From the IMG/VR virus record IMGVR_UViG_3300042866_001263: a stretch of DNA of 64,000 nucleotides. One strand, 5' to 3'. The stretch comes from a virus (lineage: Duplodnaviria; Caudoviricetes). The notes under the pieces were generated by a model that saw nothing but the letters and a program-made list of their open reading frames with translations, had not been told where the DNA came from and searched no databases. Shown here in pieces: positions 1,643 to 13,319 of this stretch (the stretch's first letter is position 1; each line of letters opens with the position of its first letter). The position numbers were made by a program, and so were the translations under genes.

Positions 1643-1808
1643 TAAGAATCACCTAGACATCATGTGGACGGTGGCAACGAGTGGCAGTTTAGAAACTGGC
1701 ATACGACCCCACTACGGGTTCGCTCAGTTGCTGTATGATTACCTCATAGACAAAAAGTTCCCTGATGACTACTATCCGAGAAAAACGAGCACTGCTGAAG
1801 AAACTTGA
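1614..1808 (+). CDS. hypothetical protein
   Basis: 64 aa ORF in the array. Confidence 0.6.
   Translation: MMENPKPIPDKNHLDIMWTVATSGSLETGIRPHYGFAQLLYDYLIDKKFPDDYYPRKTSTAEET
1681..1739 (+). promoter_or_regulatory. early promoter, palindrome copy 1 (embedded in CDS)
   Basis: GTGGCAGT-N6-ACTGGCAT at 1681-1702, 31 bp gap, -10 TATGAT at 1734-1739, upstream of ORF 1765. Confidence 0.6.
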
Positions 1809-2040
1809 GACAGCATACAATACATGCTTTGATTGTGGTCAGAAATATGGCGTGTATTCTGTAGGTTGTTCATCTGTGTATGAAGCAAAGTGTGATGTCT
1901 GTGGTGAAACTAAACGTATCACAGAGACACGAGACTTTGCTTACTTTATTACTGGTATCCGCAAACTCAAACTTGAGATCAAAAATGAGAAAGGTAACAG
2001 TCAAACCCAAAAGCAGCAAGGCGAAGAACCGTCTAGCTAA
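1765..2040 (+). CDS. small Cys4 zinc-binding protein
   Basis: CFDC...CDVC pairs. Confidence 0.7.
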   Translation: MTTIREKRALLKKLETAYNTCFDCGQKYGVYSVGCSSVYEAKCDVCGETKRITETRDFAYFITGIRKLKLEIKNEKGNSQTQKQQGEEPSS

Positions 2041-2200
2041 CATTATGGACAATAACCCCATCTGTATTGTAGAGCAAGATACTGGTGGTGAGTTGTTCTT
2101 AGCATCAGAAAATCGCAAATACTTTTTCTGGGTTAGTACTCGTAGTGGTACTAATCGTTTCGGTGACAAATCTGACGCACACTGGGAGGTGATTGAATGA
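1985..2200 (+). CDS. hypothetical protein
   Basis: ATG 1985 (MRKVTVKPKSSKAKNRLAN...) preferred over the track's 1880 start. Confidence 0.7.
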   Translation: MRKVTVKPKSSKAKNRLANIMDNNPICIVEQDTGGELFLASENRKYFFWVSTRSGTNRFGDKSDAHWEVIE

Positions 2201-2373
2201 AACCCAAATTCCGTCCAGTATTGGAGATGGCAATTGAAGAAGGCGTTAGATTTGGTTGGAACCGTGCTCATAAACACAATCCTGAACCAGATGTAGATGC
2301 TGCTGCTGATGCTATAGTAAATGAGATCATGAATTCACTTGATACTTGGTTCAACATGGAGGATTTTGAATGA
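2197..2373 (+). CDS. hypothetical protein
   Basis: 58 aa (MKPKFRPVLEMAIEEGVRFGWNRAHKH...) with ATGA overlaps at both ends; below the track cutoff. Confidence 0.7.
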   Translation: MKPKFRPVLEMAIEEGVRFGWNRAHKHNPEPDVDAAADAIVNEIMNSLDTWFNMEDFE

Positions 2374-2654
2374 GTTTTACTAAGACTGTTTCTGTGTTTG
2401 CTGCTCTCGCTAGTATCTTTGCTGCTGGTGCTGCTGGTTGGAAACTAGCAGACAGTCAAAACCAAGTTCCTTTGACGCCATTAGATCAAAAGGTGATGGA
2501 ACTGGAAAAGAAACTCGAAGAAGCACAAAAATCTCAAGTTGCTCCACAACCAGTTAGTCTCCCAGCAGCTCCAGCACCTGTAGTTCAAACAGCACCACAA
2601 CCTGCTACACTACCTCCAGTAGCACCACCTCCACCTGTTCCTCCACAACCATGA
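2370..2654 (+). CDS. membrane-anchored protein with coiled coil and Pro-rich tail
   Basis: N-terminal hydrophobic helix, then KVMELEKKLEEAQK, then a Pro-rich C-terminus. Confidence 0.75.
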   Translation: MSFTKTVSVFAALASIFAAGAAGWKLADSQNQVPLTPLDQKVMELEKKLEEAQKSQVAPQPVSLPAAPAPVVQTAPQPATLPPVAPPPPVPPQP

Positions 2655-2866
2655 CTTTGATTGATACTCTCGAATACTTCATCGATGATACCAGGGCACG
2701 TCTATCTGACATAGAATGGGAAATCCGTGAAGAGACAAACTATGATGATGAGGGGCATGATCTGCGTATGCTTGACTTCTGCGAACAGTATGATGAAATT
2801 GATGAGCGACTACAAGATCTAGAAAAGATCAAATCTATTATTGAAATTATGGAGATTGAAGAATGA
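2651..2866 (+). CDS. acidic hypothetical protein
   Basis: 71 aa, D/E-rich, ATGA coupling. Confidence 0.7.
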   Translation: MTLIDTLEYFIDDTRARLSDIEWEIREETNYDDEGHDLRMLDFCEQYDEIDERLQDLEKIKSIIEIMEIEE

Positions 2867-3270
2867 AACAACAAAATGGATTTATTGACCCCGTTATTGT
2901 TCTGATCGTTGGTGGGGTTGTTGGTATTGGTCTTCTGCTGTTTATTGGTGGTCCTCAATACAATGTTTGGCAACAATCGCTAGCTGGTAAAGCAGAACTA
3001 CAGAAAGCAGAATACACTCGTCAAGTAGCGGTGTTGGAAGCACAAGCAAAGAAAGATAGTGCTCAACAACTTGCTGATGCTGAAATCATCCGTGCTACTG
3101 GTGTTGCCAAAGCAAACCAGATCATCGGTGACAGTCTGAAAGACAACCGTGAGTATCTTCAATATCTGTATATCACTGGTCTGGAAGATGGTAGTAAGAA
3201 TGGTAACGTGACGATCTATGTGCCTACCGAGGGTGGGATGCCTGTTCCGACTTTACAAATGAACAAGTGA
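2863..3270 (+). CDS. SPFH/prohibitin (HflC-like) coiled-coil membrane protein
   Basis: Transmembrane helix followed by an AEA-type coiled coil (EAQAK...AEIIRATGVAKANQII..SL..EYLQY..I) and IYVPT. Confidence 0.55.
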   Translation: MKQQNGFIDPVIVLIVGGVVGIGLLLFIGGPQYNVWQQSLAGKAELQKAEYTRQVAVLEAQAKKDSAQQLADAEIIRATGVAKANQIIGDSLKDNREYLQYLYITGLEDGSKNGNVTIYVPTEGGMPVPTLQMNK

Positions 3271-3324
3271 CACTTTGATAACTGGCACAGGGTCCGTCAC
3301 GGGCTCTGTGCTTTGCCCTATAAT
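3267..3324 (+). promoter_or_regulatory. early promoter, palindrome copy 2
   Basis: GTGACACT-N6-ACTGGCAC at 3267-3288, stem-loop at 3285-3311, -10 TATAAT at 3319-3324 (30 bp gap). Confidence 0.8.
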
Positions 3325-3347
3325 AACTTCATAAGCAACCGAGGCAA

Positions 3348-3506
3348 ATGACCGTCATTTCTCGCCAACACTGGGACACACTCTATACGATGCTGTATGA
3401 TGCGTATGAAGAGTGTAGCAAAAACCAGAATGAAACTTACCGACATATGATCGGTCAAGTTCTCGATCACATGATTTACAACGAAAAGCACTTGGTTATC
3501 AAATGA
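3348..3506 (+). CDS. hypothetical protein
   Basis: 52 aa (MTVISRQHWDTLYTMLYDAY...) directly after the promoter, SD-like GAGG. Confidence 0.7.
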   Translation: MTVISRQHWDTLYTMLYDAYEECSKNQNETYRHMIGQVLDHMIYNEKHLVIK

Positions 3507-3706
3507 CTTCTAACAACACTTCTACTCGTTCTGGTATGGGTTTCACTAGTTGGCTCACCATTCTGTTTATTGCTCTCAAACTTACTGGTCAGATTACTTG
3601 GCCGTGGGTGTGGGTATTGTCTCCTATTTGGATCAGTGGTCTGATTGTTTTTGCTCTCTTTATTATTCTTCTTGCTATTGCTATCATCAACGAGGTGCGT
3701 AAATGA
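3503..3706 (+). CDS. small two-TM membrane protein (common phage family, LKLTG.I.W.W.WVL.P.W motif)
   Basis: GFTSWLTILFIALKLTGQITWPWVWVLSPIW. Confidence 0.75.
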   Translation: MTSNNTSTRSGMGFTSWLTILFIALKLTGQITWPWVWVLSPIWISGLIVFALFIILLAIAIINEVRK

Positions 3707-3915
3707 GCGGCGTTAATTATGTTTGTATCATCGATGGTCTGCTAGAGTTTGCTAGCACCACTGCCAGAGATTTCGCACATTATCTGATGATGTATGAGGA
3801 TGAGATCTTTGAGGCGGAACACACTGGAGCATTTGTTCAGATGCTGTCTCTAACTGATGCGGAGTTTGAAGCTATGTTCCCTGTAGAAGATGATGAACTG
3901 GAGGAAGAAGAATGA
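3703..3915 (+). CDS. acidic hypothetical protein
   Basis: 70 aa ending in EDDELEEEE. Confidence 0.7.
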   Translation: MSGVNYVCIIDGLLEFASTTARDFAHYLMMYEDEIFEAEHTGAFVQMLSLTDAEFEAMFPVEDDELEEEE

Positions 3916-4193
3916 GCGGCGGACACTTCAACGATTGCGGTTACGATTACTACAAGGTAGCACAGTTTGCTGATGAACTTGAAGCAGAAGTATGTAACAA
4001 CTTTGAGCAAGATGAGTATGGTTTTGCTCACGAATATTCACCAGAAGTTTGTGAGTATCTGTTAGAGCAGGTTACCAAGATGCGTAAGATGGCAGAGATT
4101 ATGAGGCATATTGATTATCTGTATAGTGGTGATCATGGTGAGGATAGTTTTATGGATCGTGTGAAAGAAGTGGAGGCTAAGTATGAAATTTGA
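3912..4193 (+). CDS. hypothetical protein
   Basis: 93 aa, MSGGHF...YLYSGDHGEDSF, ATGA coupling. Confidence 0.75.
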   Translation: MSGGHFNDCGYDYYKVAQFADELEAEVCNNFEQDEYGFAHEYSPEVCEYLLEQVTKMRKMAEIMRHIDYLYSGDHGEDSFMDRVKEVEAKYEI

Positions 4194-4401
4194 AGGAATT
4201 GATTGGGCAGTTTTGTCTGTATTTTTTATTGCAATCGTTGCTGGTGCTATCATCAGCTATGATGCCCAACAACAACGAGTATTATTCCAACAAACATACA
4301 ATAAGAACTTAGAGTGTCGTCAAGCACTCAAAGACCAAACAGTAGGACGAGTGAATGAGATTTGTGGCGATGTTCCTGCTATTGGAGCTTTTGTGAAATG
4401 A
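4183..4401 (+). CDS. hypothetical membrane protein
   Basis: N-terminal TM helix and two Cys. Confidence 0.7.
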   Translation: MKFEGIDWAVLSVFFIAIVAGAIISYDAQQQRVLFQQTYNKNLECRQALKDQTVGRVNEICGDVPAIGAFVK

Positions 4402-4574
4402 TTGAACTTCGTATCGTTGAGAACGAAATGGGAATGAGGCCAGACATTCAGTATCGTTATCATCAGTTTGGATTTAATGCGAGTGGAGCATTATGCCCAT
4501 TAGCACCCGAATTTATTTGGAGTGAATGGAAAACTGCCGAATGGGTAACAGCAGAGGATATTGAAAATGATTAA
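4398..4574 (+). CDS. hypothetical protein
   Basis: ATG 4398 overlapping the upstream TGA is preferred over GTG 4362. Confidence 0.6.
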   Translation: MIELRIVENEMGMRPDIQYRYHQFGFNASGALCPLAPEFIWSEWKTAEWVTAEDIEND

Positions 4575-4734
4575 AATTCAAAAAACTTACTATCTTGCAC
4601 TCACAGAGCAACAAGCAAAAGAACTCTACGAACTTCTAAGATTTGCGAATGAAGGTTCTTATTTAACTCACGATAAAGAACTGATGCTTGTTTATCACGA
4701 ACTCAAAAACCTCTTTGATATTGGAATCCGATGA
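4567..4734 (+). CDS. hypothetical protein
   Basis: 55 aa (MIKIQKTYYLALTEQQAKELYELL...) filling the gap; below the track cutoff. Confidence 0.65.
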   Translation: MIKIQKTYYLALTEQQAKELYELLRFANEGSYLTHDKELMLVYHELKNLFDIGIR

Positions 4735-4946
4735 AAAACTATCGTATTGTCAAAAAAACCAAAGGAGACCGCACAAGGTATTATCCACAGGTGAAGTTTC
4801 TGTTTTGGTGGTATAATCCATTCAAGAATGAATATTATGATGGGGGGTTATTATCTCTGGAAGAAGCACAAGTGGAACTTTGTGAGTATATACGGAAAAC
4901 TACGGTAGAATTTATTGACTTTGACCCAAAGAGGGATTGTAAATGA
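4731..4946 (+). CDS. hypothetical protein
   Basis: 71 aa, YRIVK...YYPQVKFLFWW. Confidence 0.7.
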   Translation: MKNYRIVKKTKGDRTRYYPQVKFLFWWYNPFKNEYYDGGLLSLEEAQVELCEYIRKTTVEFIDFDPKRDCK

Positions 4947-5506
4947 CTGAAAGGTTAAATCACAAACTTGATGTAAGCAAACTCAAAACCATCAAAGATA
5001 TAAAGAATGTCTTTGAGTGTATGAATTTGTATGCTTCTGCTGAAGAAGACAACGAACAGTATGAACTTCTCAAAGAATACTTTACGATCCCAAACGAGCC
5101 ACAAGAAATCAAATTTGAATTGCCACGTAAGTCATTAGAAGAAATCTCACAGGAATTTGATGAGAAGATTGATAAACAGATTGAAGATGTAGAGTATAAG
5201 TTCGCACAACTCAAATATTATCAAGAGTATCAGTTTAGTAAAAAGATTACCAGGATTATTGAGGATATTGAGTATGCGAAGGAACACGGACAATTCCCAG
5301 TCAGACTTACAGTAGGTAAGTTAGATTGTTCTACTCTTGGTGTGAGCAGTGCTGTAGATTGGACTACAGAGTTTAGAATTGGTAAAGATGAGGTAGGATA
5401 CTGGGATATCAAACCAAACATCAAAGTGTATCTGAAAAAGAAACCAAATCGTGTTGTGAGATATTTTACTAAATTACTTCTTGATTTTACTTGGAAAGAC
5501 AAATGA
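4943..5506 (+). CDS. hypothetical protein
   Basis: 187 aa ORF with ATGA coupling. Confidence 0.75.
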   Translation: MTERLNHKLDVSKLKTIKDIKNVFECMNLYASAEEDNEQYELLKEYFTIPNEPQEIKFELPRKSLEEISQEFDEKIDKQIEDVEYKFAQLKYYQEYQFSKKITRIIEDIEYAKEHGQFPVRLTVGKLDCSTLGVSSAVDWTTEFRIGKDEVGYWDIKPNIKVYLKKKPNRVVRYFTKLLLDFTWKDK

Positions 5507-5706
5507 CTAAACTATCAGCAGCAGACCTTATGGTAATTCATAACACTCTTTATAAAAGTTTGAGTGTCGTTGGAAATAGTATTTGGACACAAGAAACCAG
5601 AGAAAGAGTTATGGATAAGGTGTCTATTATTATGGAACAAATGAAAGCAGAAGTTGTCTGTGGTGATGTAGAACCTATTGTAGTGAGTGGAGATTTGGGA
5701 GGATGA
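5503..5706 (+). CDS. hypothetical protein
   Basis: ATG 5503 overlaps the upstream stop. Confidence 0.65.
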   Translation: MTKLSAADLMVIHNTLYKSLSVVGNSIWTQETRERVMDKVSIIMEQMKAEVVCGDVEPIVVSGDLGG

Positions 5707-5927
5707 CCGAAGAAAAACTCACACTTCTCCTCAAGGTTCTCAAAGAAGTAGCAGAGGTAAAACACTGCTATGAAGGTCTATTTGGAGATGATTATACTCC
5801 AAGTGCTGGTAATTATGATGATGCCTTTGAAGATGGTTGTGCTTATGGTGAGATTACCTTTGCCCGCACTATGTTAGAATGTATTGGTGAAAAGTTTGAA
5901 TACCCTTGTATGAAAGAAAATGACTGA
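5703..5927 (+). CDS. hypothetical protein
   Basis: 74 aa with GNYDDAFEDG..YG motif. Confidence 0.7.
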   Translation: MTEEKLTLLLKVLKEVAEVKHCYEGLFGDDYTPSAGNYDDAFEDGCAYGEITFARTMLECIGEKFEYPCMKEND

Positions 5928-6102
5928 ACGAGTAAAATTCAAAAGTATCACACGAGTGATTGGTCCCAGGAGTGGTATTCATTATTTGGATGCTATTGAT
6001 GAGAATGGAATGCACTGGGTTGCACAAATGGAAACTGGTGTAGAGCCATGGATTACATATAAGGAGACATGGAAGAAAGACCCCCAGCAACCGTATGACT
6101 AA
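5920..6102 (+). CDS. hypothetical protein
   Basis: 60 aa ORF in the array. Confidence 0.65.
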   Translation: MTERVKFKSITRVIGPRSGIHYLDAIDENGMHWVAQMETGVEPWITYKETWKKDPQQPYD

Positions 6103-6913
6103 CCAACAAATCGATTTCAACCAAATTAAAGATCTGTTCTCTGATCAAGAGTGGGATGCTGCTTATCTGTCTGCTGAACACTTGCAAAGGTCTTCTAGTG
6201 CTCCAATCAAGGTTAAAATGCATGTCTTTGGTCATGATATGACGAATGCCATTCATGCCAAAGCTTTGAATGGTATTATTCTGGCAAAGTATTCGACGGA
6301 ATCAAATGATTATTCTCTGTATCGAGAATCATATGAGAAGTTGTTAACTCTCTTTGATAAGGAAGATTTTGCACCAGTGTATGTGAACTTCAAAGAAGCT
6401 TCCATTCTGTCTGGTTTTGGTGTGAGAGCAAAGAACTCATTGGTTTACAATCGTAAGTTTGGTTTTCAATGTAAGTTTTGTGCCTATATCTTCAGGGATG
6501 AAATTGCCAATCATGATGATCTAAAACCACAAAAGGGAATGTTGGATCTATGTGATGGTTGTGAGGATTGTATTCGAAACTGCCCCGTGAATGCCATTCA
6601 TGAGGATTGGATTGATGGCGCAAAGTGTGACAATTTCATTGGATATGGTAATGATCCAAGTGTGTCATCCTTGAAGTGGTTTTGGTATGAAAAGATGAGA
6701 CCACGGAACATTTCTAAGGATGAAGTGTATGAATGGAATTCTCATGCAACTCATGGTAAAAACATCGTATGGGGTAAAGGTATTGATGGTTCCTATGAGC
6801 TAACCATGGAAGGATTGATGAGGGATGGAAATCCAGTTAAGATCCCACACTGTAGGAACTGTCAAGAACAACCAAAGTGTAGTAAGGCACCATTTATTGA
6901 TGACCAATCATGA
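6095..6913 (+). CDS. epoxyqueuosine reductase QueG / reductive dehalogenase-like double [4Fe-4S] protein
   Basis: FKEASILSGFGVRAKNSLVYNRKFG resembles the A..AGLG..GKN.L.I...G motif. CDGCEDCIRNCPVNAI, IDGAKC and CRNCQEQPKC give 8 Cys. Confidence 0.7.
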   Translation: MTNQQIDFNQIKDLFSDQEWDAAYLSAEHLQRSSSAPIKVKMHVFGHDMTNAIHAKALNGIILAKYSTESNDYSLYRESYEKLLTLFDKEDFAPVYVNFKEASILSGFGVRAKNSLVYNRKFGFQCKFCAYIFRDEIANHDDLKPQKGMLDLCDGCEDCIRNCPVNAIHEDWIDGAKCDNFIGYGNDPSVSSLKWFWYEKMRPRNISKDEVYEWNSHATHGKNIVWGKGIDGSYELTMEGLMRDGNPVKIPHCRNCQEQPKCSKAPFIDDQS

Positions 6914-7092
6914 CTGAACAACAAATTGATCTGTTACGCACTCTCATACAAGCGGAGATTGAATATGCTATCCAGAATGAAAACGACTATCGGTTTGCTT
7001 TTGAACAGGATAAAGCAAATGACCAGGCATGGGAAACATTCAAACGAACTTTCAGAGGAGGAAATCTGGAAGACTATGTGGGAGAATGCTGA
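6910..7092 (+). CDS. hypothetical protein
   Basis: 60 aa, ATGA coupling. Confidence 0.6.
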   Translation: MTEQQIDLLRTLIQAEIEYAIQNENDYRFAFEQDKANDQAWETFKRTFRGGNLEDYVGEC

Positions 7093-7213: not shown

Positions 7214-7623
7214 ATGATGATATGCCGTGGGTCAATCTCACTCAAGAAGAAGTTGATGAACTCCGCACAAAGAAGTATGAACTCACGGAATACGGTAAAC
7301 ACCGCATACAACAACTGATGAACAATCAAGAACCATACCCTGATGCCATGTTTGAAGAAGCTGAGCGTAGGGAAAAGAGCAATCGTGTTCTACAACGCTA
7401 CAATGATTACTACAATATGGAATGTGCCAGTTTGCCTCATGGCACACCCATTACACCAGAACATCAACAAATGATTACTCTACAGTGTATGATTGATGCC
7501 ATACGCTGTGAATATCTCAATCAAGAATATAATCATATCGCTATCACTGATATTGAAGATCTGATCGAACAATTAGATCATCAAGCAACTAAGTTTCTAG
7601 AACGAGTGAGACAAAATGACTGA
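7204..7623 (+). CDS. hypothetical protein
   Basis: 139 aa ORF. Confidence 0.7.
   Translation: MGLNDDMPWVNLTQEEVDELRTKKYELTEYGKHRIQQLMNNQEPYPDAMFEEAERREKSNRVLQRYNDYYNMECASLPHGTPITPEHQQMITLQCMIDAIRCEYLNQEYNHIAITDIEDLIEQLDHQATKFLERVRQND
7424..7481 (+). promoter_or_regulatory. possible internal early promoter, palindrome copy 3
   Basis: GTGCCAGT-N6-CATGGCAC at 7424-7445, 30 bp gap, -10-like TACTCT at 7476-7481. Confidence 0.45.
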
Positions 7624-7816
7624 TAAAGAACTGTACAATCCAGATGAATTCCTACTGGACAATATCAAGAGCTATCACTATGAGGTAATGGATGAAGGTG
7701 AACATGTATGGATGGCATTTTACTTTAATAACGGTAATACAGGACACTTGAATATTTTTCTCAATAATGGTAAAATCAATACACGTTATGAAGAATGGGA
7801 TGAAGAAACAACATGA
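7616..7816 (+). CDS. hypothetical protein
   Basis: 66 aa, NPDEFLLDNI..HYEVMDEG.HVWM. Confidence 0.7.
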   Translation: MTDKELYNPDEFLLDNIKSYHYEVMDEGEHVWMAFYFNNGNTGHLNIFLNNGKINTRYEEWDEETT

Positions 7817-7908
7817 TCTTAATTACGTATGCAATTGGTGTCATGGCAGGATCTGTTCTAATTAATTACTTACTCATGAAATATACGGATGATGATGATG
7901 ACACTTAG
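7813..7908 (+). CDS. small membrane peptide
   Basis: 31 aa MILITYAIGVMAGSVLINYLLMKYTDDDDDT with ATGA coupling. Confidence 0.45.
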   Translation: MILITYAIGVMAGSVLINYLLMKYTDDDDDT

Positions 7909-8104
7909 AGCACAAACATTAATGCAAGAAGTATGGAATGAACGTAACACATGGGCAGATACAGAAAATAAACTTGTTGCAGCAATCATTCGTAAGATGA
8001 TCTCTCATGCTAAAACATACACAGCATCAACAATGAATGATCTACAAGTGATTGATAAGAATGATCTTATCACACTGTCAAAAGAACTAGAACAACTCAA
8101 ATGA
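7889..8104 (+). CDS. hypothetical protein
   Basis: Run of four ATGs, so the true start may be 7898. Confidence 0.65.
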   Translation: MMMMTLRAQTLMQEVWNERNTWADTENKLVAAIIRKMISHAKTYTASTMNDLQVIDKNDLITLSKELEQLK

Positions 8105-8277
8105 CATTCACTCAAACATCTAATCAACCATACGATAGACACAAGTATAAACTCTATCTAACAAATGGTAAGGTAGAACAGTATGAATGGTATGATGAAC
8201 TAATAGCACGATGGATACAAACACCATCACAGTTCCTATCACATGTAGAAGTCATAGATAGAAAGAAAAAACGATAG
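8101..8277 (+). CDS. hypothetical protein
   Basis: 58 aa (MTFTQTSNQPYDRHKYKL...); below the track cutoff. Confidence 0.65.
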   Translation: MTFTQTSNQPYDRHKYKLYLTNGKVEQYEWYDELIARWIQTPSQFLSHVEVIDRKKKR

Positions 8278-8278
8278 G

Positions 8279-8452
8279 ATGATTGACGAGAATACACCCT
8301 ACAAACTAGCAGAAATCATACGAGATACATGGCCTCAATTATATCATCTGAAGAGAGATGATATTGATAATCAACAAGGTTTTCAAGGTGCTTCCGCTCC
8401 AGTCATAGCAAGGGTTCTCAATAAGAAAGGTCTTATTGATAATCAACAATAA
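8279..8452 (+). CDS. hypothetical protein
   Basis: 57 aa (MIDENTPYKLAEIIRDTWPQLY...). Confidence 0.55.
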   Translation: MIDENTPYKLAEIIRDTWPQLYHLKRDDIDNQQGFQGASAPVIARVLNKKGLIDNQQ

Positions 8453-8581
8453 GAAATGGTTAAAAAAATATAGTATATCCGAGTGATACAGAGGTATTGA
8501 TCTGTATCGTTCGGTAACGTTCGAGAAGGTGCGGAGTGGTTGTTGGCTTAGCGTGTAACCTATCGAAAGTCAAGTTCAGGT

Positions 8582-8639
8582 GTGCCAGTACTCAAAGTGT
8601 CACAAAACCCCTCTGAGGACCTCCCAGATGCCTTATACT
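8582..8639 (+). promoter_or_regulatory. early promoter, palindrome copy 4
   Basis: GTGCCAGT-N6-AGTGTCAC at 8582-8603, 30 bp gap, -10 TATACT at 8634-8639. Confidence 0.8.
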
Positions 8640-8665
8640 ACCTAGGTAATCGAGAGACATCCCAA

Positions 8666-8833
8666 ATGCTCACCACCACTGAGGTTATTGAGAAACCCCT
8701 GACCCCTCAGCAGAAGATTGCCCTGGACAATCAGCAAGTCTGTGAGGCATTCGTAGAAGCTCTTAAGGCAGGTGATAAGAAGACTGCTACCGAGTATGCT
8801 AAAGTGATCATGTTGAAGGCGATGTCCCTCTGA
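8666..8833 (+). CDS. hypothetical protein
   Basis: ATG 8666 lies downstream of promoter copy 4; 55 aa. Confidence 0.65.
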   Translation: MLTTTEVIEKPLTPQQKIALDNQQVCEAFVEALKAGDKKTATEYAKVIMLKAMSL

Positions 8834-8835
8834 AG

Positions 8836-8865
8836 TTTTCCACAACCTGTGGAAACTGTGGAAAA
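8836..8865. promoter_or_regulatory. cluster of DnaA-box-like 9-mers
   Basis: TTTTCCACA at 8836-8844 (+), TGTGGAAAA at 8857-8865 (- strand TTTTCCACA) and a one-mismatch TGTGGAAAC at 8848-8856. Confidence 0.55.
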
Positions 8866-8870
8866 CTCAT

Positions 8871-9016
8871 TTATTGAGATTCTCAATAATCTTAAAATAT
8901 TGAAAATCCTAATATTTGAGTTTTTTGAGTTTTTCGAAAATCTTAAAAACTTAACTTTTTAGTTTTTTAAGATTTCTTGTTTTTCTTACCATTTAAACTT
9001 TAATCACACACACAAA
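8871..9016. other. AT-rich non-coding tract with inverted repeats (origin/DUE-like)
   Basis: Perfect IR TTATTGAGA-T-TCTCAATAA at 8871-8889, repeated AGTTTTTT runs, and an imperfect IR AAATCTTAAAAACT / AGTTTTTTAAGATTT. Confidence 0.5.
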
Positions 9017-9265
9017 ATGAACAAATCCTTCAATAATCTTCAGAGTTCAGCTATTAACTCTATTGAAGTAGTTGATAGTACAGTTAAAGTAGTGTATAAT
9101 AGTAATGTAGACAAAGAATATACATTTAACTGTGAAAATGTAGAAGAATTTGTAGAAGAATTGTCTAAAGAATTGATCAGTATTGAATTAGAAGATAATA
9201 AAGGATCTGTTGGTCGTTTTATCAACAAACAGATCAAAGATCAAGTCCTAGTTCAATCTAAATAA
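9017..9265 (+). CDS. KTSC-like small protein
   Basis: SSAINSIEV..TVKVVYNS..KEYTF...GSVGRFINKQIK resembles the KTSC pattern. Confidence 0.5.
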   Translation: MNKSFNNLQSSAINSIEVVDSTVKVVYNSNVDKEYTFNCENVEEFVEELSKELISIELEDNKGSVGRFINKQIKDQVLVQSK

Positions 9266-9299
9266 TCACACACTGTTTGAGTAACTAAACCCCAAGACA

Positions 9300-9461
9300 A
9301 TGAGCAACAAGAATTACCGTTCGAATAGCAACGATAAGTTTAAACAATTCGACGATGAATTTGAAGACTACGGCTACGATGTAAAGAATGTACGTAGGCA
9401 GTCTAAAAAGAAAGTTACCAAATTTAAGACCAAAGATGATTGGTATGAGGACAGTTTCTGA
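9300..9461 (+). CDS. hypothetical protein
   Basis: 53 aa (MSNKNYRSNSNDKFKQFDDEFEDYGY...) after a CTAAATA at 9258-9264. Confidence 0.6.
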   Translation: MSNKNYRSNSNDKFKQFDDEFEDYGYDVKNVRRQSKKKVTKFKTKDDWYEDSF

Positions 9462-9505
9462 AGTGGCACACTAACACCCCCAGACCCTCCCTGATGATGT
9501 ATTGT
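9448..9505 (+). promoter_or_regulatory. early promoter, palindrome copy 5
   Basis: AGGACAGT-N6-AGTGGCAC at 9448-9469, 30 bp gap, TATTGT at 9500-9505. Confidence 0.7.
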
Positions 9506-9529
9506 TAACAAGTCGTCAGGGATTGCCCC

Positions 9530-9733
9530 ATGATTTTCTACACTTCCACGAACCACGGTTGTGTATATTCTCTGTCTCAGGAAGATGGTGAAGAACTGTT
9601 CTATGCTCCCATCTATGCTAACGGTAGTGTGAATTTGAATGAATTTGCCCCTGTAGATATGGATGATATTGATATGGATGACATGGAGTTGTTTGATATC
9701 ATGAACCGCCTGCGTCAGATGGCAGCAGTGTGA
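9530..9733 (+). CDS. acidic early protein
   Basis: 67 aa with DMDDIDMDDME. Confidence 0.75.
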   Translation: MIFYTSTNHGCVYSLSQEDGEELFYAPIYANGSVNLNEFAPVDMDDIDMDDMELFDIMNRLRQMAAV

Positions 9734-9787
9734 CAGTCTCTGAACTGTCTACTAATCACTCCAAACCCCATCTGGGGATGCCATACT
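9730..9787 (+). promoter_or_regulatory. early promoter, palindrome copy 6
   Basis: GTGACAGT-N6-ACTGTCTA at 9730-9751, 30 bp gap, CATACT at 9782-9787, then an AAGTCAAACAAA leader. Confidence 0.8.
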
Positions 9788-9811
9788 AACCAAGTCAAAC
9801 AAATTTCACGA

Positions 9812-10042
9812 ATGACTAACACTTTCATGAAGGCATTTGTTAACACTTTGATGATCAATCTTGCCACCATCGCTGCTGTTATCGTTGGTGTGGTGAGTTA
9901 TGCTTACCGTGCTGCTAAGGTTTGGTATGCTGAGAATGGCGAAGATCTTCGCTACGATGTTAGTTTCCAACTCGCAGAATTCTTTGGTTCACTTCACTTT
10001 AAGTTTGCTGATATGGCAGGAGAGTTTGATGATGATGTGTGA
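9812..10042 (+). CDS. early membrane protein
   Basis: 76 aa with a hydrophobic segment LATIAAVIVGVVSYAY. Confidence 0.75.
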   Translation: MTNTFMKAFVNTLMINLATIAAVIVGVVSYAYRAAKVWYAENGEDLRYDVSFQLAEFFGSLHFKFADMAGEFDDDV

Positions 10043-10097
10043 CAGTTAAGCAAGTGGCACAAGGGGGGTTGCAATTGCCCCCATCCTGACCCATACT
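10039..10097 (+). promoter_or_regulatory. early promoter, palindrome copy 7, with sigma70-like -35
   Basis: GTGACAGT-N6-AGTGGCAC at 10039-10060; TTGCAA at 10069-10074, 17 bp spacer, CATACT at 10092-10097. Confidence 0.85.
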
Positions 10098-10123
10098 AAG
10101 CAAGTCAACCAAACGACCCGACA

Positions 10124-10438
10124 ATGCGTAAGATCGAACGTCTGATGAATGCTGCTATCAAAGCAGGCAAAGATTGGAAGCTCGCTAACACTGAGGTGGT
10201 GGCATGTTCTAACGTTACTGATGTCTTCCTGCATGGCAATCTGATTGCTCGCATTGGTGAAACCTGGATTGAATTGTTCGATGGTGGTTGGCAAACTGTT
10301 ACCACGAAGTCTCGCTTGAATGCTATTCTTCGTGAGCATGGTTTGCCTCATGAGGGTATCTTCCAGCGCAAAGGTCAGTGGTTTGTTAACATGAATGACA
10401 TGACCATTCCTTTCTTCTCGGGTATGCGTCTTAACTGA
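10124..10438 (+). CDS. early hypothetical protein (MRKIE... family)
   Basis: 104 aa, LHGNLIA...DGGWQTVTTKSRLNAIL. Confidence 0.8.
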   Translation: MRKIERLMNAAIKAGKDWKLANTEVVACSNVTDVFLHGNLIARIGETWIELFDGGWQTVTTKSRLNAILREHGLPHEGIFQRKGQWFVNMNDMTIPFFSGMRLN

Positions 10439-10481
10439 CGATTGCCCTCATTAAATATAATCAACACTCACGAGGGTTAGC

Positions 10482-10613
10482 ATGACTATTCAAGAGATGT
10501 ACCAAGAGATGAAAGATCAACAAGTGGAAGATCAGAAGCAAGGATATAATGACCCTGATATGTACGATGATTGCTATACTTTCATAGAGATCGATTACAC
10601 TACCCAAGAATAG
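10482..10613 (+). CDS. small acidic protein
   Basis: 43 aa MTIQEMYQEMKDQQVEDQKQGY..., preceded by TATAAT at 10456-10461 and GAGGG. Confidence 0.55.
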   Translation: MTIQEMYQEMKDQQVEDQKQGYNDPDMYDDCYTFIEIDYTTQE

Positions 10614-10619
10614 AGAACT

Positions 10620-10682
10620 GGGCGGCCGCTTCGCTGCCCCTTCCCTCCCCTCCCGCCCTCTAGGTTAGTCGCCTGGAGGGCG
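10620..10682. other. GC-rich double hairpin around a C-tract (G-quadruplex motif on the - strand)
   Basis: GGGCGG..CTGCCC hairpin; CCCC-TT-CCC-T-CCCC-T-CCC-G-CCC at 10637-10658; CGCCCTCTAGG / CCTGGAGGGCG 11-bp stem at 10654-10682. Confidence 0.5.
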
Positions 10683-10698
10683 TCTGTCTAGGTGGGCT

Positions 10699-10756
10699 GG
10701 GACAGTTCGGCAACTGACCACCAAACCCACCAGACTGCCCCTAGGGGTGCCATACT
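10699..10756 (+). promoter_or_regulatory. early promoter, palindrome copy 8 (leaderless)
   Basis: GGGACAGT-N6-ACTGACCA at 10699-10720, 30 bp gap, CATACT at 10751-10756, ATG at 10763. Confidence 0.75.
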
Positions 10757-10762
10757 GATCTC

Positions 10763-10933
10763 ATGAAACAAACCGCTCACACCGCTTACGCTCAGCAGAT
10801 CCTGGCAAAGGGTCGGGATCTGCCTACTGCCCCTGCCCCTAAGGCGCAGTACCCCCGTACTATCCATGGTCGGGTCTTTCAGACTGAGGCAGAGTATAGG
10901 GAGGCACTGCATGACTTCCTGAACGGCATGTGA
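10763..10933 (+). CDS. early hypothetical protein
   Basis: 56 aa MKQTAHTAYAQQILAKGRDLP...; below the track cutoff, flanked by motif copies. Confidence 0.7.
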   Translation: MKQTAHTAYAQQILAKGRDLPTAPAPKAQYPRTIHGRVFQTEAEYREALHDFLNGM

Positions 10934-10987
10934 CAGTCGGGAGGGTGGCCACCACCCCTTGACTTTACCCCTGATCTGATCCATACT
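10930..10987 (+). promoter_or_regulatory. early promoter, palindrome copy 9, with sigma70-like -35
   Basis: GTGACAGT-N6-GGTGGCCA at 10930-10951; TTGACT at 10959-10964, 17 bp spacer, CATACT at 10982-10987. Confidence 0.85.
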
Positions 10988-11011
10988 AACAAAGTCAAAT
11001 CAAACGAGACT

Positions 11012-11200
11012 ATGACAAAGACCGAAGCAACTGCCCTTGCGATCGCCGTTGTTCACAGCAACTGCCCGAACGCTGCTAATGGTCACGTTCGGATGCTGCA
11101 TCAGTCTGCCGATGGTGCTGAGATGCTGCGCCTGATCGTTCGTGATAATCTGGCAGGTGCTGGTGACATCGTAGCAGATGCCCTGATGGACAATCTCTGA
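11012..11200 (+). CDS. early hypothetical protein
   Basis: 62 aa between two motif copies. Confidence 0.75.
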   Translation: MTKTEATALAIAVVHSNCPNAANGHVRMLHQSADGAEMLRLIVRDNLAGAGDIVADALMDNL

Positions 11201-11244
11201 ACTGTCCACCAAACCTCCCAAACCCCGTCAAGGGGTGCCATACT
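11187..11244 (+). promoter_or_regulatory. early promoter, palindrome copy 10
   Basis: TGGACAAT-N6-ACTGTCCA at 11187-11208, 30 bp gap, CATACT at 11239-11244. Confidence 0.8.
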
Positions 11245-11268
11245 AAACAAGTCAACCAAACAAAGCAA

Positions 11269-11697
11269 ATGAGCATCACTCTCACCGCTAACTACAAAGA
11301 AGTTCTGAACGCTCACACTGTTAACAAGATCGATGAATTGATCGATGAGAACTATGCTCTGGATGACATGCTGGAGTTCATTGACGCTCACAATGAGGAT
11401 GACTTCTGCAACTATTATGAAGAGTATGTGCGTTGTGGTGAAGCGATCGGATATGATGCCGTTGATGCCCTGATCGAAGAAATGGGCGACATGTCCTATA
11501 TTGACTGCTGTGATGAGCGGTTCCGTGGTTGGTATGAATCCGAGGCAGACTTCGCTGAAGAATTCTACAACGAGATCAGCGATGTTCCCTCTGCATTGGT
11601 GATCGATTGGCAGGCGACCTACGATTCCTCCCTACGTTATGATTACACCTGCTGTGAGGTGAAGTATCGTCAGGTTGCTGTGTTCAGCGACTATTGA
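11269..11697 (+). CDS. ArdA-like antirestriction (DNA-mimic) protein
   Basis: Very acidic; FRGWYESEADFAEEFY..ISDVPSALVIDWQATY matches the ArdA C-terminal Y.G.Y.S..DFAEE...P..l..IDw.a pattern. Confidence 0.65.
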   Translation: MSITLTANYKEVLNAHTVNKIDELIDENYALDDMLEFIDAHNEDDFCNYYEEYVRCGEAIGYDAVDALIEEMGDMSYIDCCDERFRGWYESEADFAEEFYNEISDVPSALVIDWQATYDSSLRYDYTCCEVKYRQVAVFSDY

Positions 11698-11749
11698 GCA
11701 ATGGGAATGGGTGCGCCCTAAAGACGCCCAGCAAACTAACAACAATTCA

Positions 11750-11860
11750 ATGTCACACTACAACATGCCTAGTCTGCCTGTGATTCGTTCTAACCAGCAA
11801 CCTAGTGTGACACTTGCAGATCTGGTCTATCGTTGGTTGATGCGTCGTCTGGGGCTGTAG
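11750..11860 (+). CDS. small early peptide
   Basis: 36 aa MSHYNMPSLPVIRSNQQPSVTLADLVYRWLMRRLGL; its TAG stop is part of the next -10 box. Confidence 0.45.
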   Translation: MSHYNMPSLPVIRSNQQPSVTLADLVYRWLMRRLGL

Positions 11861-11863
11861 ACT
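11807..11863 (+). promoter_or_regulatory. early promoter, palindrome copy 11 (degenerate)
   Basis: GTGACACT-N6-TCTGGTCT at 11807-11828, 29 bp gap, TAGACT at 11858-11863. Confidence 0.55.
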
Positions 11864-11885
11864 GACAGCATCGAAACGAACCATC

Positions 11886-12062
11886 ATGACGACCCTCGCC
11901 AAATCAATTCTCGTGATGCTGACCGCCAGCGTTACCATCGTTGCAGGATCCCACGTGCTAGACGCTGCTCTGAAGGTTCGTGATAAGATCGACCACCGCA
12001 ACGCCCTAACCTGCCAGCAGATCAACGAGGTGATGCCAGGCGGGTGCCAGATGCCCAAGTGA
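11886..12062 (+). CDS. early membrane or secreted peptide
   Basis: 58 aa with hydrophobic N-terminus and two C-terminal Cys; below the track cutoff. Confidence 0.65.
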   Translation: MTTLAKSILVMLTASVTIVAGSHVLDAALKVRDKIDHRNALTCQQINEVMPGGCQMPK

Positions 12063-12102
12063 CCACCAGCTGCCCCGATGGGCACCGCTGACCCTGTAGA
12101 CT
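12044..12102 (+). promoter_or_regulatory. early promoter, palindrome copy 12
   Basis: GTGCCAGA-N6-AGTGACCA at 12044-12065, 31 bp gap, TAGACT at 12097-12102. Confidence 0.75.
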
Positions 12103-12127
12103 AACCTCAGTTCAAACGAAACGACCC

Positions 12128-12406
12128 ATGACCAAAGCAACCGCCACCCTTCCTACCTACAACGGTTGGGCAACTTACGAAACCTGGAATGCTGCCCTGT
12201 GGATCGGCAATGATCAATTCCTCTACAATACCGCCAAGGCATGTGTAGAGTACTGTGGCGACAATGAGACCCCCTGGGATAAGTTCGTGCGTTGCATGAT
12301 GGATGGCATGATCGGTCGCCACCTCGGGCAGACTGGTGACGGCGTGGCATGGGATAGCGTCGCCATCGATGCCGATGAGATGAACGCCATGATGGCAGAT
12401 CTGTGA
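12128..12406 (+). CDS. early phage protein with YNGW.xYETW motif
   Basis: TYNGWATYETWNAALWIGND, a widespread phage early-gene motif. Confidence 0.8.
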   Translation: MTKATATLPTYNGWATYETWNAALWIGNDQFLYNTAKACVEYCGDNETPWDKFVRCMMDGMIGRHLGQTGDGVAWDSVAIDADEMNAMMADL

Positions 12407-12461
12407 CGGTCGGGAGACTGTCCCCCATCTGCCCCGATCCTGCCTCCTGACCCTGTAGACT
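12403..12461 (+). promoter_or_regulatory. early promoter, palindrome copy 13 (leaderless)
   Basis: GTGACGGT-N6-ACTGTCCC at 12403-12424, 31 bp gap, TAGACT at 12456-12461, ATG at 12468. Confidence 0.8.
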
Positions 12462-12467
12462 AACAGC

Positions 12468-12662
12468 ATGAAAGAAAACACCTTCACCCTCTCGCTCCGT
12501 GACCGCTGCCTCGCCCTCGCTGAGGCACAGGCATGGGAGATCAATGGCGACATCGACGCTGTGGATCCTGACGACCTCGAATCCTGCCTGGCAGGTCTGA
12601 CCGAGGACAACCTGGAGGAGACGGCTGGCAATCTGGCACACCTCGCCGCCTGGTGCGCCTGA
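12468..12662 (+). CDS. acidic early protein
   Basis: 64 aa, D/E-rich core. Confidence 0.7.
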   Translation: MKENTFTLSLRDRCLALAEAQAWEINGDIDAVDPDDLESCLAGLTEDNLEETAGNLAHLAAWCA

Positions 12663-12676
12663 GCGCCCTGTAGACT
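12618..12676 (+). promoter_or_regulatory. early promoter, palindrome copy 14 (inside the upstream CDS, leaderless)
   Basis: GAGACGGC-N6-TCTGGCAC at 12618-12639, 31 bp gap, TAGACT at 12671-12676, ATG at 12683. Confidence 0.65.
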
Positions 12677-12682
12677 AACAGC

Positions 12683-12859
12683 ATGAACAAAACCAAGATG
12701 ACCCACAACGAACTGATCGCCTCCGTGATGGCATCCTACACTGAGCGCCTCGCCCGTGAGGAGGCACACCGTCAAGCGATCCGTGATGCCGTCGCTAACG
12801 GGACCTACCAGGCACCCGAGGGACAGTGGGGCGAGTGGAACATCAGCGATCGGGACTGA
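12683..12859 (+). CDS. early hypothetical protein
   Basis: 58 aa MNKTKMTHNELIASVMASYTERLAREE...; below the track cutoff. Confidence 0.7.
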   Translation: MNKTKMTHNELIASVMASYTERLAREEAHRQAIRDAVANGTYQAPEGQWGEWNISDRD

Positions 12860-12878
12860 CCCCCAGACCGTCTAGACT
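12820..12878 (+). promoter_or_regulatory. early promoter, palindrome copy 15 (inside the upstream CDS)
   Basis: GGGACAGT-N6-AGTGGAAC at 12820-12841, 31 bp gap, TAGACT at 12873-12878. Confidence 0.7.
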
Positions 12879-12902
12879 AACCCCATACCAAACGAACCGA
12901 GC

Positions 12903-13100: not shown

Positions 13101-13139
13101 CCCCCCATCCTACCACGTCCCCATTCTCTACACTAACTC

Positions 13140-13313: not shown

Positions 13314-13319
13314 GACACT

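What the first reader, a model, noticed from the sequence alone, without database searches (positions are those of the whole stretch)
1681..12878. 15-copy palindromic operator at a fixed distance from the -10 box: an early regulon
Seen: a 22-bp imperfect palindrome GTG[A/C]CAGT-N6-A[C/G]TG[G/T]CAC at 1681, 3267, 7424, 8582, 9448, 9730, 10039, 10699, 10930, 11187, 11807, 12044, 12403, 12618 and 12820. In each case 29-31 bp separate it from a -10 hexamer (TATAAT, TATACT, CATACT, TAGACT and variants), putting its centre near -54. Only two copies have a clear -35 (TTGCAA, TTGACT). Known: a distinct early-gene regulatory element was reported for cyanophage Syn9, and promoter-early stem-loop cassettes for T4-type phages; I cannot confirm identity with either. 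Inference: a dimeric activator must act immediately on infection, so it is either a host factor or an injected virion protein. To my knowledge its identity is unknown. The site does not match CRP (TGTGA-N6-TCACA) or NtcA (GTA-N8-TAC).
Basis: partly seen in the sequence, partly recalled or inferred. Interest (0 to 1): 0.75.

Follow-up and report, generated by a model that had tools for sequence, protein, structure and literature searches.

The report
Cyanophage early promoters copying host yfr2 promoter
Fifteen small genes of an uncultured lake cyanophage each carry the same promoter unit, a 22-bp symmetric site placed 29-31 bp before a -10 box. The unit is shared by T4-like cyanophages and matches the promoter of the host's Yfr2 small-RNA genes, which makes the host regulator PlmA a testable candidate for switching on early phage genes.

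Summary
All 15 palindromes are real. With a matrix built from other viral contigs they score 12.9-29.1 bits. Palindrome-plus-(-10) units number 16 in the window against 0.03-0.57 in shuffles, and none lies outside 1681-12841. Each sits 29-31 nt upstream of a -10 hexamer, and 13 of 15 lack a -35.

It is a protein site, not a hairpin. The variable positions pair no more often than chance, and 9 of 15 sites fold no better than shuffles.

The same unit occurs about 8 times in phage Syn9 and 319 times in 80 IMG/VR loci. It is therefore the general early-type promoter of T4-like cyanophages, very probably the element reported by Doron et al. 2016. I could not read that paper.

Its half-site (GTG[A/C]CAGTT) equals the half-site of CGRE1, the PlmA (GntR) site of picocyanobacterial yfr2 promoters, and lies at the same distance from the -10. 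In larger cyanobacteria, yfr2 promoters carry the full phage-type 22-mer 31-32 nt (one at 39) before the -10.

Best reading (0.55): host PlmA activates these promoters. PlmA binding, transcription starts and timing are all untested.

Earlier agents of this scan reached the same reading on other phage genomes. I re-tested it here.

The parts
1681..1739 (+). Cassette 1: palindrome 1681-1702, 31-nt spacer, -10 TATGAT 1734-1739. ATG of the 91-aa ORF is at 1765.
   Evidence: (21.9 bits)
3267..3324 (+). Cassette 2: palindrome 3267-3288, -10 TATAAT 3319-3324, ATG at 3348. The upstream gene's TGA stop lies inside the palindrome. It probably heads a run of about 20 overlapping small ORFs (3348-8452).
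   Evidence: (27.7 bits)
7424..7481 (+). Cassette 3, the weakest: palindrome 7424-7445, -10-like TACTCT 7476-7481. It lies inside ORF 7204-7623 and has no start codon at the usual distance. It may be an internal or decayed promoter.
   Evidence: (12.9 bits)
8582..8639 (+). Cassette 4: palindrome 8582-8603, -10 TATACT 8634-8639, ATG at 8666.
   Evidence: (25.8 bits)
9448..9505 (+). Cassette 5: palindrome 9448-9469, -10 TATTGT 9500-9505, ATG at 9530.
   Evidence: (25.2 bits)
9730..9787 (+). Cassette 6: palindrome 9730-9751, a small CCCC/GGGG hairpin in the spacer, -10 CATACT 9782-9787, ATG at 9812. The upstream TGA stop lies inside the palindrome.
   Evidence: (19.7 bits)
10039..10097 (+). Cassette 7: palindrome 10039-10060, -35 TTGCAA, -10 CATACT 10092-10097, ATG at 10124 (Kyanoviridae Gp96-family gene). 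The palindrome start is a homology boundary with other viral contigs.
   Evidence: (29.1 bits)
10699..10756 (+). Cassette 8: palindrome 10699-10720, -10 CATACT 10751-10756. The ATG at 10763 is only 6 nt after the -10, so the mRNA is probably leaderless.
   Evidence: (18.9 bits)
10930..10987 (+). Cassette 9: palindrome 10930-10951, -35 TTGACT, -10 CATACT 10982-10987, ATG at 11012.
   Evidence: (18.7 bits)
11187..11244 (+). Cassette 10: palindrome 11187-11208, spacer hairpin, -10 CATACT 11239-11244, ATG at 11269 (142-aa anti-restriction-like protein, phrog_36653).
   Evidence: (13.7 bits)
11807..11863 (+). Cassette 11: palindrome 11807-11828, 29-nt spacer, -10 TAGACT 11858-11863, ATG at 11886.
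   Evidence: (13.4 bits)
12044..12102 (+). Cassette 12: palindrome 12044-12065, spacer hairpin, -10 TAGACT 12097-12102, ATG at 12128 (DUF7249).
   Evidence: (16.5 bits)
12403..12461 (+). Cassette 13: palindrome 12403-12424, -10 TAGACT 12456-12461. The ATG at 12468 is 6 nt after the -10 (leaderless type). The upstream TGA stop lies inside the palindrome.
   Evidence: (20.6 bits)
12618..12676 (+). Cassette 14: palindrome 12618-12639, which lies inside the 3' end of the upstream ORF, -10 TAGACT 12671-12676. The ATG at 12683 is of the leaderless type.
   Evidence: (16.7 bits)
12820..12878 (+). Cassette 15: palindrome 12820-12841, which lies inside the 3' end of the upstream ORF, -10 TAGACT 12873-12878, ATG at 12903.
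   Evidence: (17.0 bits)

Best explanation
**Model.** The 15 units are promoters of the early-type class that T4-like cyanophages (Kyanoviridae) share. Each has a 22-bp two-fold symmetric protein-binding site centred about -54, a spacer that often holds a small G+C hairpin where a -35 would sit, a -10 box, and a short A/C-rich leader or none. The class copies the promoter of the host's own yfr2 small-RNA genes. I propose that the host GntR-family regulator PlmA binds the palindrome as a dimer. PlmA is the homologue of Prochlorococcus PMM1637, which binds and activates yfr2 promoters. Like a class I activator, it would recruit host RNA polymerase to promoters that have little or no -35. Transcription could then start the moment the DNA enters, without any phage protein. 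The unit (palindrome to stop codon) also behaves as a movable single-gene module.

**Shown here:** the motif, its geometry, its lack of hairpin conservation, its spread among cyanophages, and its identity in half-site and register with host yfr2 promoters.

**Inferred:** that PlmA is the protein, that it activates, and that the genes are early.
For: **1. A real, fixed-geometry promoter unit.** Thirteen of 15 lack a -35.

**2. A protein site, not a hairpin.** Across 319 IMG/VR cassettes, the variable position pair 4-19 pairs in 0.53 of sites against 0.47 expected. Pair 7-16 pairs in 0.35 against 0.48 expected. Nine of the 15 window sites fold no better than shuffles.

**3. Shared by T4-like cyanophages.**
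- Syn9 gives 10 hits against 0.5 in shuffles, of which about 8 are clear + strand cassettes.
- The gap to the -10 peaks sharply at 30-31 nt in IMG/VR loci.

**4. Same half-site as host yfr2 promoters.** A half-site matrix built from phage cassettes was scanned over 39 picocyanobacterial yfr2 promoters. Its best forward hit (at least 8 bits, often the perfect 9-mer) fell at a fixed register in 25 of them. Column-shuffled matrices gave a mean of 0.18 and a maximum of 4.

**5. Same distance to the -10.** The half-site centre lies 48-50 nt from the -10 in 19 of 28 host promoters and in all 15 window sites.

**6. The full phage-type site exists in hosts.**
- In cyanobacteria with 3.7-7.8 Mb genomes, 9 of 16 yfr2 promoters carry the full phage-type 22-mer (one a 23-nt variant), scoring 13.9-25.2 bits. 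It lies 31-32 nt before the -10 in eight of them and 39 nt in one.
- No other hit of 13.5 bits or more occurs in 154,194 scanned positions (both strands) of those loci.
- One picocyanobacterial promoter (L140) has the full site at the same register.

**7. PlmA is the known yfr2 regulator.** PMM1637 was pulled down with, shifts and activates yfr2 promoters through CGRE1, and CGRE1 occurs nowhere else in the MED4 genome (PMC6191309, PMC6778093).

**8. The PlmA DNA-binding domain is conserved.** The helix-turn-helix stretch is invariant between Synechococcus WH7803 and five distant cyanobacteria. Identity is 69-80% in the N-terminal domain against 39-44% in the rest of the protein.

**9. No phage-encoded GntR protein.** None was found in Syn9 or in this window.

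**10. An early-type gene is among those driven.** One of the genes is anti-restriction-like.
Against: - **CGRE1 has a different arrangement.** In picocyanobacteria, the natural hosts, the only experimentally proven PlmA site (CGRE1) has the two half-sites in the opposite order and closer together. The TGNCA centres are 8-9 bp apart, against 15 bp in the phage site. A rigid dimer could not bind both arrangements in the same way.
- **One half-site is not enough in vitro.** A yfr2-family promoter with only one half-site was not shifted by PMM1637 (PMC6191309).
- **No enrichment in host genomes.** The phage-type 22-mer is not enriched in four marine Synechococcus genomes: 5-11 matches against 15-26 for the reversed control. 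None of the best host matches has a -10 at the right distance.
- **Degenerate host sites.** At picocyanobacterial and freshwater Cyanobium-type yfr2 promoters, the half-site nearer the promoter is degenerate.
- **No direct binding evidence.** Nobody has shown which protein binds the 22-mer in any cyanobacterium.
- **No expression data.** There are no transcription-start or time-course data for this phage. The one RNA run held only contigs of relatives.
Confidence: 0.55

Rival explanations
1. A host protein other than PlmA binds the 22-bp palindrome at both yfr2 and phage promoters. PlmA would then act only at the picocyanobacterial CGRE1 arrangement.
For: The proven PlmA site differs from the phage site in the order and spacing of its half-sites. 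No experiment links PlmA to the 22-mer. Several marine Synechococcus yfr2 promoters carry a CGRE1 next to the -10 as well as a degenerate 22-mer at the -54 register. That could mean two separate factors.
Against: The 9-bp half-site is identical in CGRE1 and in the phage site. Prochlorococcus MED4 has a very small set of regulators, and PMM1637 is its only GntR-type protein (PMC6778093). The PlmA recognition helix is invariant across the phylum, as is the half-site.
Confidence: 0.2
2. A phage protein binds the palindrome. It would be either a virion-delivered activator or an early or middle repressor that shuts the early promoters off (a true operator).
For: T4-like cyanophages lack MotA and AsiA (PMC5780444), so how early transcription is switched off is unknown. 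Many small genes here have no known function. The window covers only 64 kb of the phage.
Against: The same site, at nearly the same distance from the -10, stands at host yfr2 genes, including in cyanobacteria far from the hosts of these phages. Promoters without a -35 need help before any phage protein is made. A site centred at -54 is poorly placed for repression. No GntR-like gene was found in Syn9 or in the window.
Confidence: 0.12
3. The palindrome is a PeSL-type stem-loop. It would act as a terminator, an RNA-processing signal or a cruciform, and serve mainly as a recombination point for shuffling gene modules, with no sequence-specific regulator.
For: It sits just upstream of a promoter in a region of many small genes, as PeSL stem-loops do (PMC4122927). 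Homology with other viral contigs starts exactly at the palindrome or at the ATG. The upstream gene's stop codon is often inside it.
Against: There is no covariation, and pairing at variable positions is at or below chance. Nine of 15 sites fold no better than shuffles. The conservation is of sequence (TGNCA cores), not of structure. No T-run follows, and terminator-like sites are not enriched: 8 against 9.3 in shuffles. A separate hairpin, where present, lies in the spacer.
Confidence: 0.05

Closest known systems
Early-gene regulatory element of T4-like cyanophages (Doron et al. 2016, ISME J 10:1437; Syn9 and P-TIM40)
   Same: Syn9 itself carries the same unit, with palindrome, a 29-30 nt gap, a -10 and a similar leader. 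It occurs at 44775, 47205, 48559, 49079, 51001, 52997, 127493 and 148743. The unit is abundant in uncultured cyanophage contigs, matching that paper's reported 'abundant and conserved' element.
   Different: I could not read the paper. That its published motif is this palindrome is therefore my inference, not a check. What I state about that paper rests on my memory of its abstract. No paper I could search links the element to yfr2 promoters or to PlmA.
yfr2 sRNA promoters with CGRE1, bound by the GntR regulator PMM1637/PlmA (Lambrecht et al. 2018, PMC6191309)
   Same: The 9-bp half-site is identical, with the same orientation and the same 48-50 nt distance to the -10. Outside the picocyanobacteria, yfr2 promoters carry the same 22-mer 31-32 nt before the -10. 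Both sites act upstream of the core promoter, and PMM1637 activates.
   Different: CGRE1 of the picocyanobacteria is 21-22 bp long and has the half-sites in the reverse order, abutting each other. No PlmA binding to the phage-type arrangement has been shown. The phage units drive protein genes, not an sRNA: no Rfam family matched anywhere in the window.
PeSL cassettes (promoter-early stem-loop) of T4-like phages (Arbiol 2010; Comeau 2014, PMC4122927)
   Same: Both are compact composite units at the boundaries of small non-essential genes in hyperplastic regions. Both have a symmetric element just upstream of an early promoter. Both mark the edges of exchanged modules.
   Different: PeSLs have near-consensus -35 and -10 boxes and a structure-conserved G/C stem-loop that terminates transcription. 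Here the -35 is mostly missing. The palindrome is conserved in sequence and not in structure.
T4 middle promoters (MotA box replacing the -35, with AsiA)
   Same: In both, a -10 box is combined with an upstream activator box in place of a -35. The logic is activator-dependent phage promoters read by host polymerase (established T4 knowledge).
   Different: The MotA box is a single asymmetric site at -30, bound by a phage protein. T4-like cyanophages lack motA and asiA (PMC5780444). Here the site is symmetric, lies at -54, and is shared with host genes.

Membership tests
Cyanophage early-gene regulatory element (Doron 2016) | Present in Syn9 in front of small genes of the early-type clusters | tested here: met
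   About 8 clear + strand cassettes in Syn9; 10 hits against 0.5 in shuffles.
Cyanophage early-gene regulatory element (Doron 2016) | Abundant and conserved among T4-like cyanophages and in metagenomes | tested here: met
319 distinct cassettes in 80 loci, with the gap peaking at 30-31 nt.
Cyanophage early-gene regulatory element (Doron 2016) | The published motif is this palindrome; it lies upstream of mapped early transcription starts | not testable with these tools
   The paper is not held. No raw RNA reads are available for this phage.
yfr2-type (PlmA/CGRE1) promoter | Half-site sequence GTG[A/C]CAGTT | tested here: met
   25 of 39 host promoters are hit at a fixed register by the phage-derived matrix, against a mean of 0.18 for shuffled matrices.
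yfr2-type (PlmA/CGRE1) promoter | Fixed position of the half-site relative to the -10 | tested here: met
   48-50 nt in 19 of 28 host promoters and in 15 of 15 window sites.
yfr2-type (PlmA/CGRE1) promoter | CGRE1 arrangement of picocyanobacteria (21-22 bp, half-sites abutting as AACTGKCAC-N-GTGMCAGTT) | tested here: not met
   The phage sites have the reverse order, with 4 bp between the 9-mers.
yfr2-type (PlmA/CGRE1) promoter | 22-bp arrangement found at yfr2 promoters of other cyanobacteria, about 31 nt before the -10 | tested here: met
   9 of 16 promoters, 13.9-25.2 bits; gap 31-32 nt in eight and 39 nt in one. No other hit in 154,194 scanned positions of those loci.
yfr2-type (PlmA/CGRE1) promoter | Bound and activated by PlmA | not testable with these tools
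   Needs a gel shift, pull-down or reporter assay. The only indirect support is the invariant recognition helix of PlmA across the phylum.
PeSL (promoter-early stem-loop) | Sigma-70 promoter with both -35 and -10 | tested here: not met
   A -35 is present in 2 of 15. The two-hexamer scan is not enriched.
PeSL (promoter-early stem-loop) | Structure-conserved stem-loop or terminator upstream of the promoter | tested here: not met
   No covariation, weak folding and no T-run.
PeSL (promoter-early stem-loop) | Lies at module boundaries in a hyperplastic region | tested here: met
   Homology blocks begin at 10037-10039 or 10121-10124 and end at 10438. Contig loose ends lie at the same places.
CRP / NtcA sites | TGTGA-N6-TCACA or GTA-N8-TAC | tested here: not met
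   In the consensus, GTGA and TCAC are 14 bp apart, and there is no GTA-N8-TAC core.

The most novel reading that the evidence does not exclude
T4-like cyanophages wire their whole early programme to the host's PlmA pathway by copying the promoter of the Yfr2 small-RNA genes. PlmA is the GntR regulator that partners with PipX and PII, the sensors of nitrogen, carbon and energy status. Early phage transcription would then be gated by the host's physiological state. The many phage copies of the site could also titrate PlmA away from yfr2.
Probability: 0.4. Interest if true: 0.8.

Novelty: new member of a known kind. Interest (0 to 1): 0.6.

Why it matters
T4-like cyanophages kill a large share of the ocean's and lakes' picocyanobacteria. 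They lack the T4 proteins MotA and AsiA that reprogramme transcription. An early-gene element was reported in 2016, but I found no paper that names its factor.

This analysis shows that the element has the same half-site and register as the host's yfr2 promoters, whose regulator PlmA is known. That turns the open question into a bench test: gel shift, pull-down or reporter assay. It also suggests that early phage expression may follow host nitrogen and light status.

The fixed module structure explains how single genes are swapped among these phages.

Tried and rejected
- **Reading Doron et al. 2016.** The paper is not held by DOI, PMC id or PubMed id. Ten full-text searches and several citing papers gave no description of its motif.
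- **Whole genome of the window.** None is held.
- **Close relatives among cultured phages.** Only short matches were found.
- **tRNA and Rfam scans of the window.** Nothing was found.
- **Degenerate pattern in IMG/VR.** It was rerun with a fixed A.
- **Expression evidence.** The runs that hold this DNA are lake-water metagenomes. The one RNA run holds only contigs of diverged relatives, with no starts or ends. This gives no verdict on transcription. The 'joints' in that run (for example 10082 to 11236) come from short flanks at 85% likeness, so they are only a weak hint of recombination between cassettes.
- **Hairpin or terminator reading of the palindrome.** Rejected.
- **Extra half-sites flanking the phage palindrome.** I looked for them as if it were the junction of two CGRE1 sites. 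There is no conservation outside a T before and an A after the 22-mer.
- **Phage-encoded GntR protein.** None was found in Syn9 or the window. My first extraction of the WH7803 PlmA frame was wrong and was corrected.

Full report
**What the window is**

The window belongs to an uncultured T4-like cyanophage (Kyanoviridae).
- It encodes baseplate wedge proteins gp25 and gp6 and a Kyanoviridae Gp96-family protein.
- It has only short nucleotide matches to cultured Synechococcus phages.
- Its DNA is held by lake-water metagenomes.
- No whole genome is held for it.
- The first 14 kb are packed with small + strand ORFs.

**The observation**

All 15 sites are there.
- The other six are more degenerate. 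A matrix built only from IMG/VR contigs still scores all 15 at 12.9-29.1 bits.
- Requiring a -10-like hexamer 29-31 nt downstream gives 16 hits in the 64 kb, against 0.03-0.57 in shuffles. None lies outside 1681-12841.
- The gap to the -10 is 29 nt (1 site), 30 nt (8 sites) or 31 nt (6 sites).
- The start codon follows 22-26 nt after the -10 in eleven units. In three it follows after only 6 nt (10699, 12403, 12618), which would give leaderless mRNAs.
- The stop codon of the upstream gene lies inside the palindrome (GTGA) in five units. Two further palindromes lie within the 3' end of the upstream ORF.
- Only 10039 and 10930 have a -35.
- Site 7424 is the weakest and lies inside an ORF.
- Site 3267 appears to head a run of about 20 overlapping small ORFs (3348-8452). 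From 9448 to 12903 nearly every gene has its own unit.

**Protein site or hairpin**

The invariant bases are the two TGNCA cores: G3, C5, A6 and T17, G18, C20. The variable positions do not covary.
- In 319 distinct IMG/VR cassettes, positions 4-19 pair in 0.53 of sites against 0.47 expected from the column contents.
- Positions 7-16 pair in 0.35 of sites against 0.48 expected.
- Nine of the 15 window sites fold no better than shuffles.
- No T-run follows the palindrome, and terminator-like sites are not enriched.

Where a real hairpin exists, it lies in the spacer, at the place of the missing -35. In some AT-rich contigs it carries a T-run. The palindrome is therefore a sequence-specific, two-fold symmetric protein site and not a PeSL-type stem-loop (PMC4122927).

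**Spread among phages**

- Syn9 has the same unit, including a similar leader, at 44775, 47205, 48559, 49079, 51001, 52997, 127493 and 148743. That is 10 hits against 0.5 in shuffles.
- In 80 of these loci, 319 distinct cassettes were found. The gap to a TATAAT-like box peaks at 30 nt (164), 31 nt (116) and 29 nt (39).
- The consensus is T-GTGaCAGTT-N4-AAcTGgCAC-A.

This is the general early-type promoter of T4-like cyanophages. It is very probably the 'novel regulatory element' of Doron et al. 2016, which I could not read.

**Link to the host**

Notes from earlier agents of this scan named the host regulator PlmA and the yfr2 promoters as a lead. I tested this myself.
- Lambrecht et al. (PMC6191309) showed that PMM1637, the PlmA homologue, binds and activates Prochlorococcus yfr2 promoters through a palindrome they called CGRE1.
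- I collected yfr2 genes (Rfam RF01701) from 64 genomes of the WH7803 family.
- Their upstream regions show CGRE1 as CAACTG[G/T]CAC-N-GTG[A/C]CAGTTG.
- The phage-derived half-site matrix finds its best forward hit, often the perfect 9-mer, at a fixed register in 25 of 39 promoters. Column-shuffled matrices give a mean of 0.18.
- That half-site lies 48-50 nt from the -10 in 19 of 28 host promoters. The distal half-site of all 15 phage units lies at exactly the same distance.

The arrangement differs, however. In CGRE1 the partner half-site lies upstream and abuts. In the phage it lies downstream, 4 bp away.

The phage arrangement is not enriched in four marine Synechococcus genomes: 5-11 matches against 15-26 for the control. 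None of the best host matches has a -10 at the right distance.

**Cyanobacteria outside the picocyanobacteria**

These genomes show that the phage-type arrangement is itself used at host yfr2 promoters, though not in the picocyanobacterial hosts.
- In genomes of 3.7-7.8 Mb, 9 of 16 yfr2 promoters carry the full phage-type 22-mer (one a 23-nt variant), at 13.9-25.2 bits with the phage matrix.
- It lies 31-32 nt before the -10 in eight of them and 39 nt in one.
- No other hit of 13.5 bits or more occurs in 154,194 scanned positions (both strands) of those loci.
- One picocyanobacterial promoter (L140) has a full phage-type site at the same register.
- Many others, including freshwater Cyanobium-type genomes, keep a degenerate version there.

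The PlmA helix-turn-helix stretch is invariant between WH7803 and five of these distant genomes. Identity is 69-80% in the N-terminal domain against 39-44% elsewhere. This fits one half-site specificity across the phylum. Neither Syn9 nor the window encodes a GntR protein.

**Mechanism proposed**

Host PlmA, already present at infection, binds the palindrome centred near -54. It recruits host RNA polymerase to promoters with a -10 but little or no -35.

The main weakness is the different half-site arrangement in the only proven PlmA site. In addition, no binding, start-site or timing data exist for this phage. I put this reading at 0.55. The rivals are:
- another host factor serving both promoter sets (0.2);
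- a phage-made or injected regulator (0.12);
- a purely structural or recombinational element (0.05).

**Modules**

Homology with other viral contigs begins at 10037-10039 (the palindrome start) or at 10121-10124 (the ATG), and ends at 10438 (the stop). Contigs of relatives break at the same points. The unit from palindrome to stop codon thus moves as a single-gene module, like PeSL cassettes in function though not in structure. The zone of single-gene units (10-14 kb) has 50-53% G+C, against 31-43% in the rest of the window.

**Literature**

I found no paper in the searchable library that links PlmA, GntR or CGRE1 with T4-like cyanophage promoters.

**Verdict**

This is a new member of a known promoter class, with a concrete and testable host factor.

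Noticed in passing
window 10751-10765, 12456-12470, 12671-12685: In three cassettes the ATG follows the -10 hexamer after only 6 nt. A start about 7 nt downstream would give leaderless mRNAs.
   Followed up: partly
window 10001-14000: A G+C island of 50-53%, against 31-43% in the rest of the window. It coincides with the zone where nearly every small gene has its own cassette, and it looks like a set of imported single-gene modules.
   Followed up: partly
window 9788-9811, 10098-10123, 10988-11011, 11245-11268, 12103-12127, 12879-12902: The leaders share A/C-rich motifs (AAGTCAA, CAAACGA) and lack a Shine-Dalgarno sequence. Syn9 leaders have a related AGAGTCAAAG motif. These may be a translation signal.
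   Followed up: no
window 9072-9100 and 14145-14173: Two near-consensus sigma-70 promoters (11 of 12 positions) without a palindrome. The second lies just before the gp25/gp6 baseplate genes. They are candidates for host-like, middle-type promoters.
   Followed up: no
window 11269-11697: A 142-aa protein matching PHROG 36653 (anti-restriction protein, E 1.9e-36), driven by cassette 10.
   Followed up: partly
window 16884-27245, 29185-37317, 42212-50476: Three giant ORFs (3453, 2710 and 2754 aa) downstream of the baseplate genes. They were not analysed.
   Followed up: no
window 6095-6913: A 272-aa ORF with a weak 4Fe-4S cluster motif (Fer4, 21.7 bits against a cut-off of 21.1), inside the long small-gene run.
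   Followed up: no
L140 (G036:C1:102069-105133) and L128, L129, L159, L316: Some picocyanobacterial yfr2 promoters carry two sites: a CGRE1 6-7 nt from the -10, and a full or degenerate phage-type 22-mer at the -54 register.
   Followed up: partly
L287/L297/L305 (G099:C49) and L290/L298 (G096:C109): Tandem arrays of yfr2 genes in large cyanobacterial genomes, most copies preceded by a phage-type palindrome (in G096 one of the two scored copies lacks it).
   Followed up: partly
window 10082 to 11236 (RNA-library contig, run X20): A contig of a relative joins the spacer of cassette 7 to the spacer of cassette 10, skipping 1153 nt. This hints at a deletion by recombination between cassettes. The flanks are short, so the evidence is weak.
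   Followed up: no
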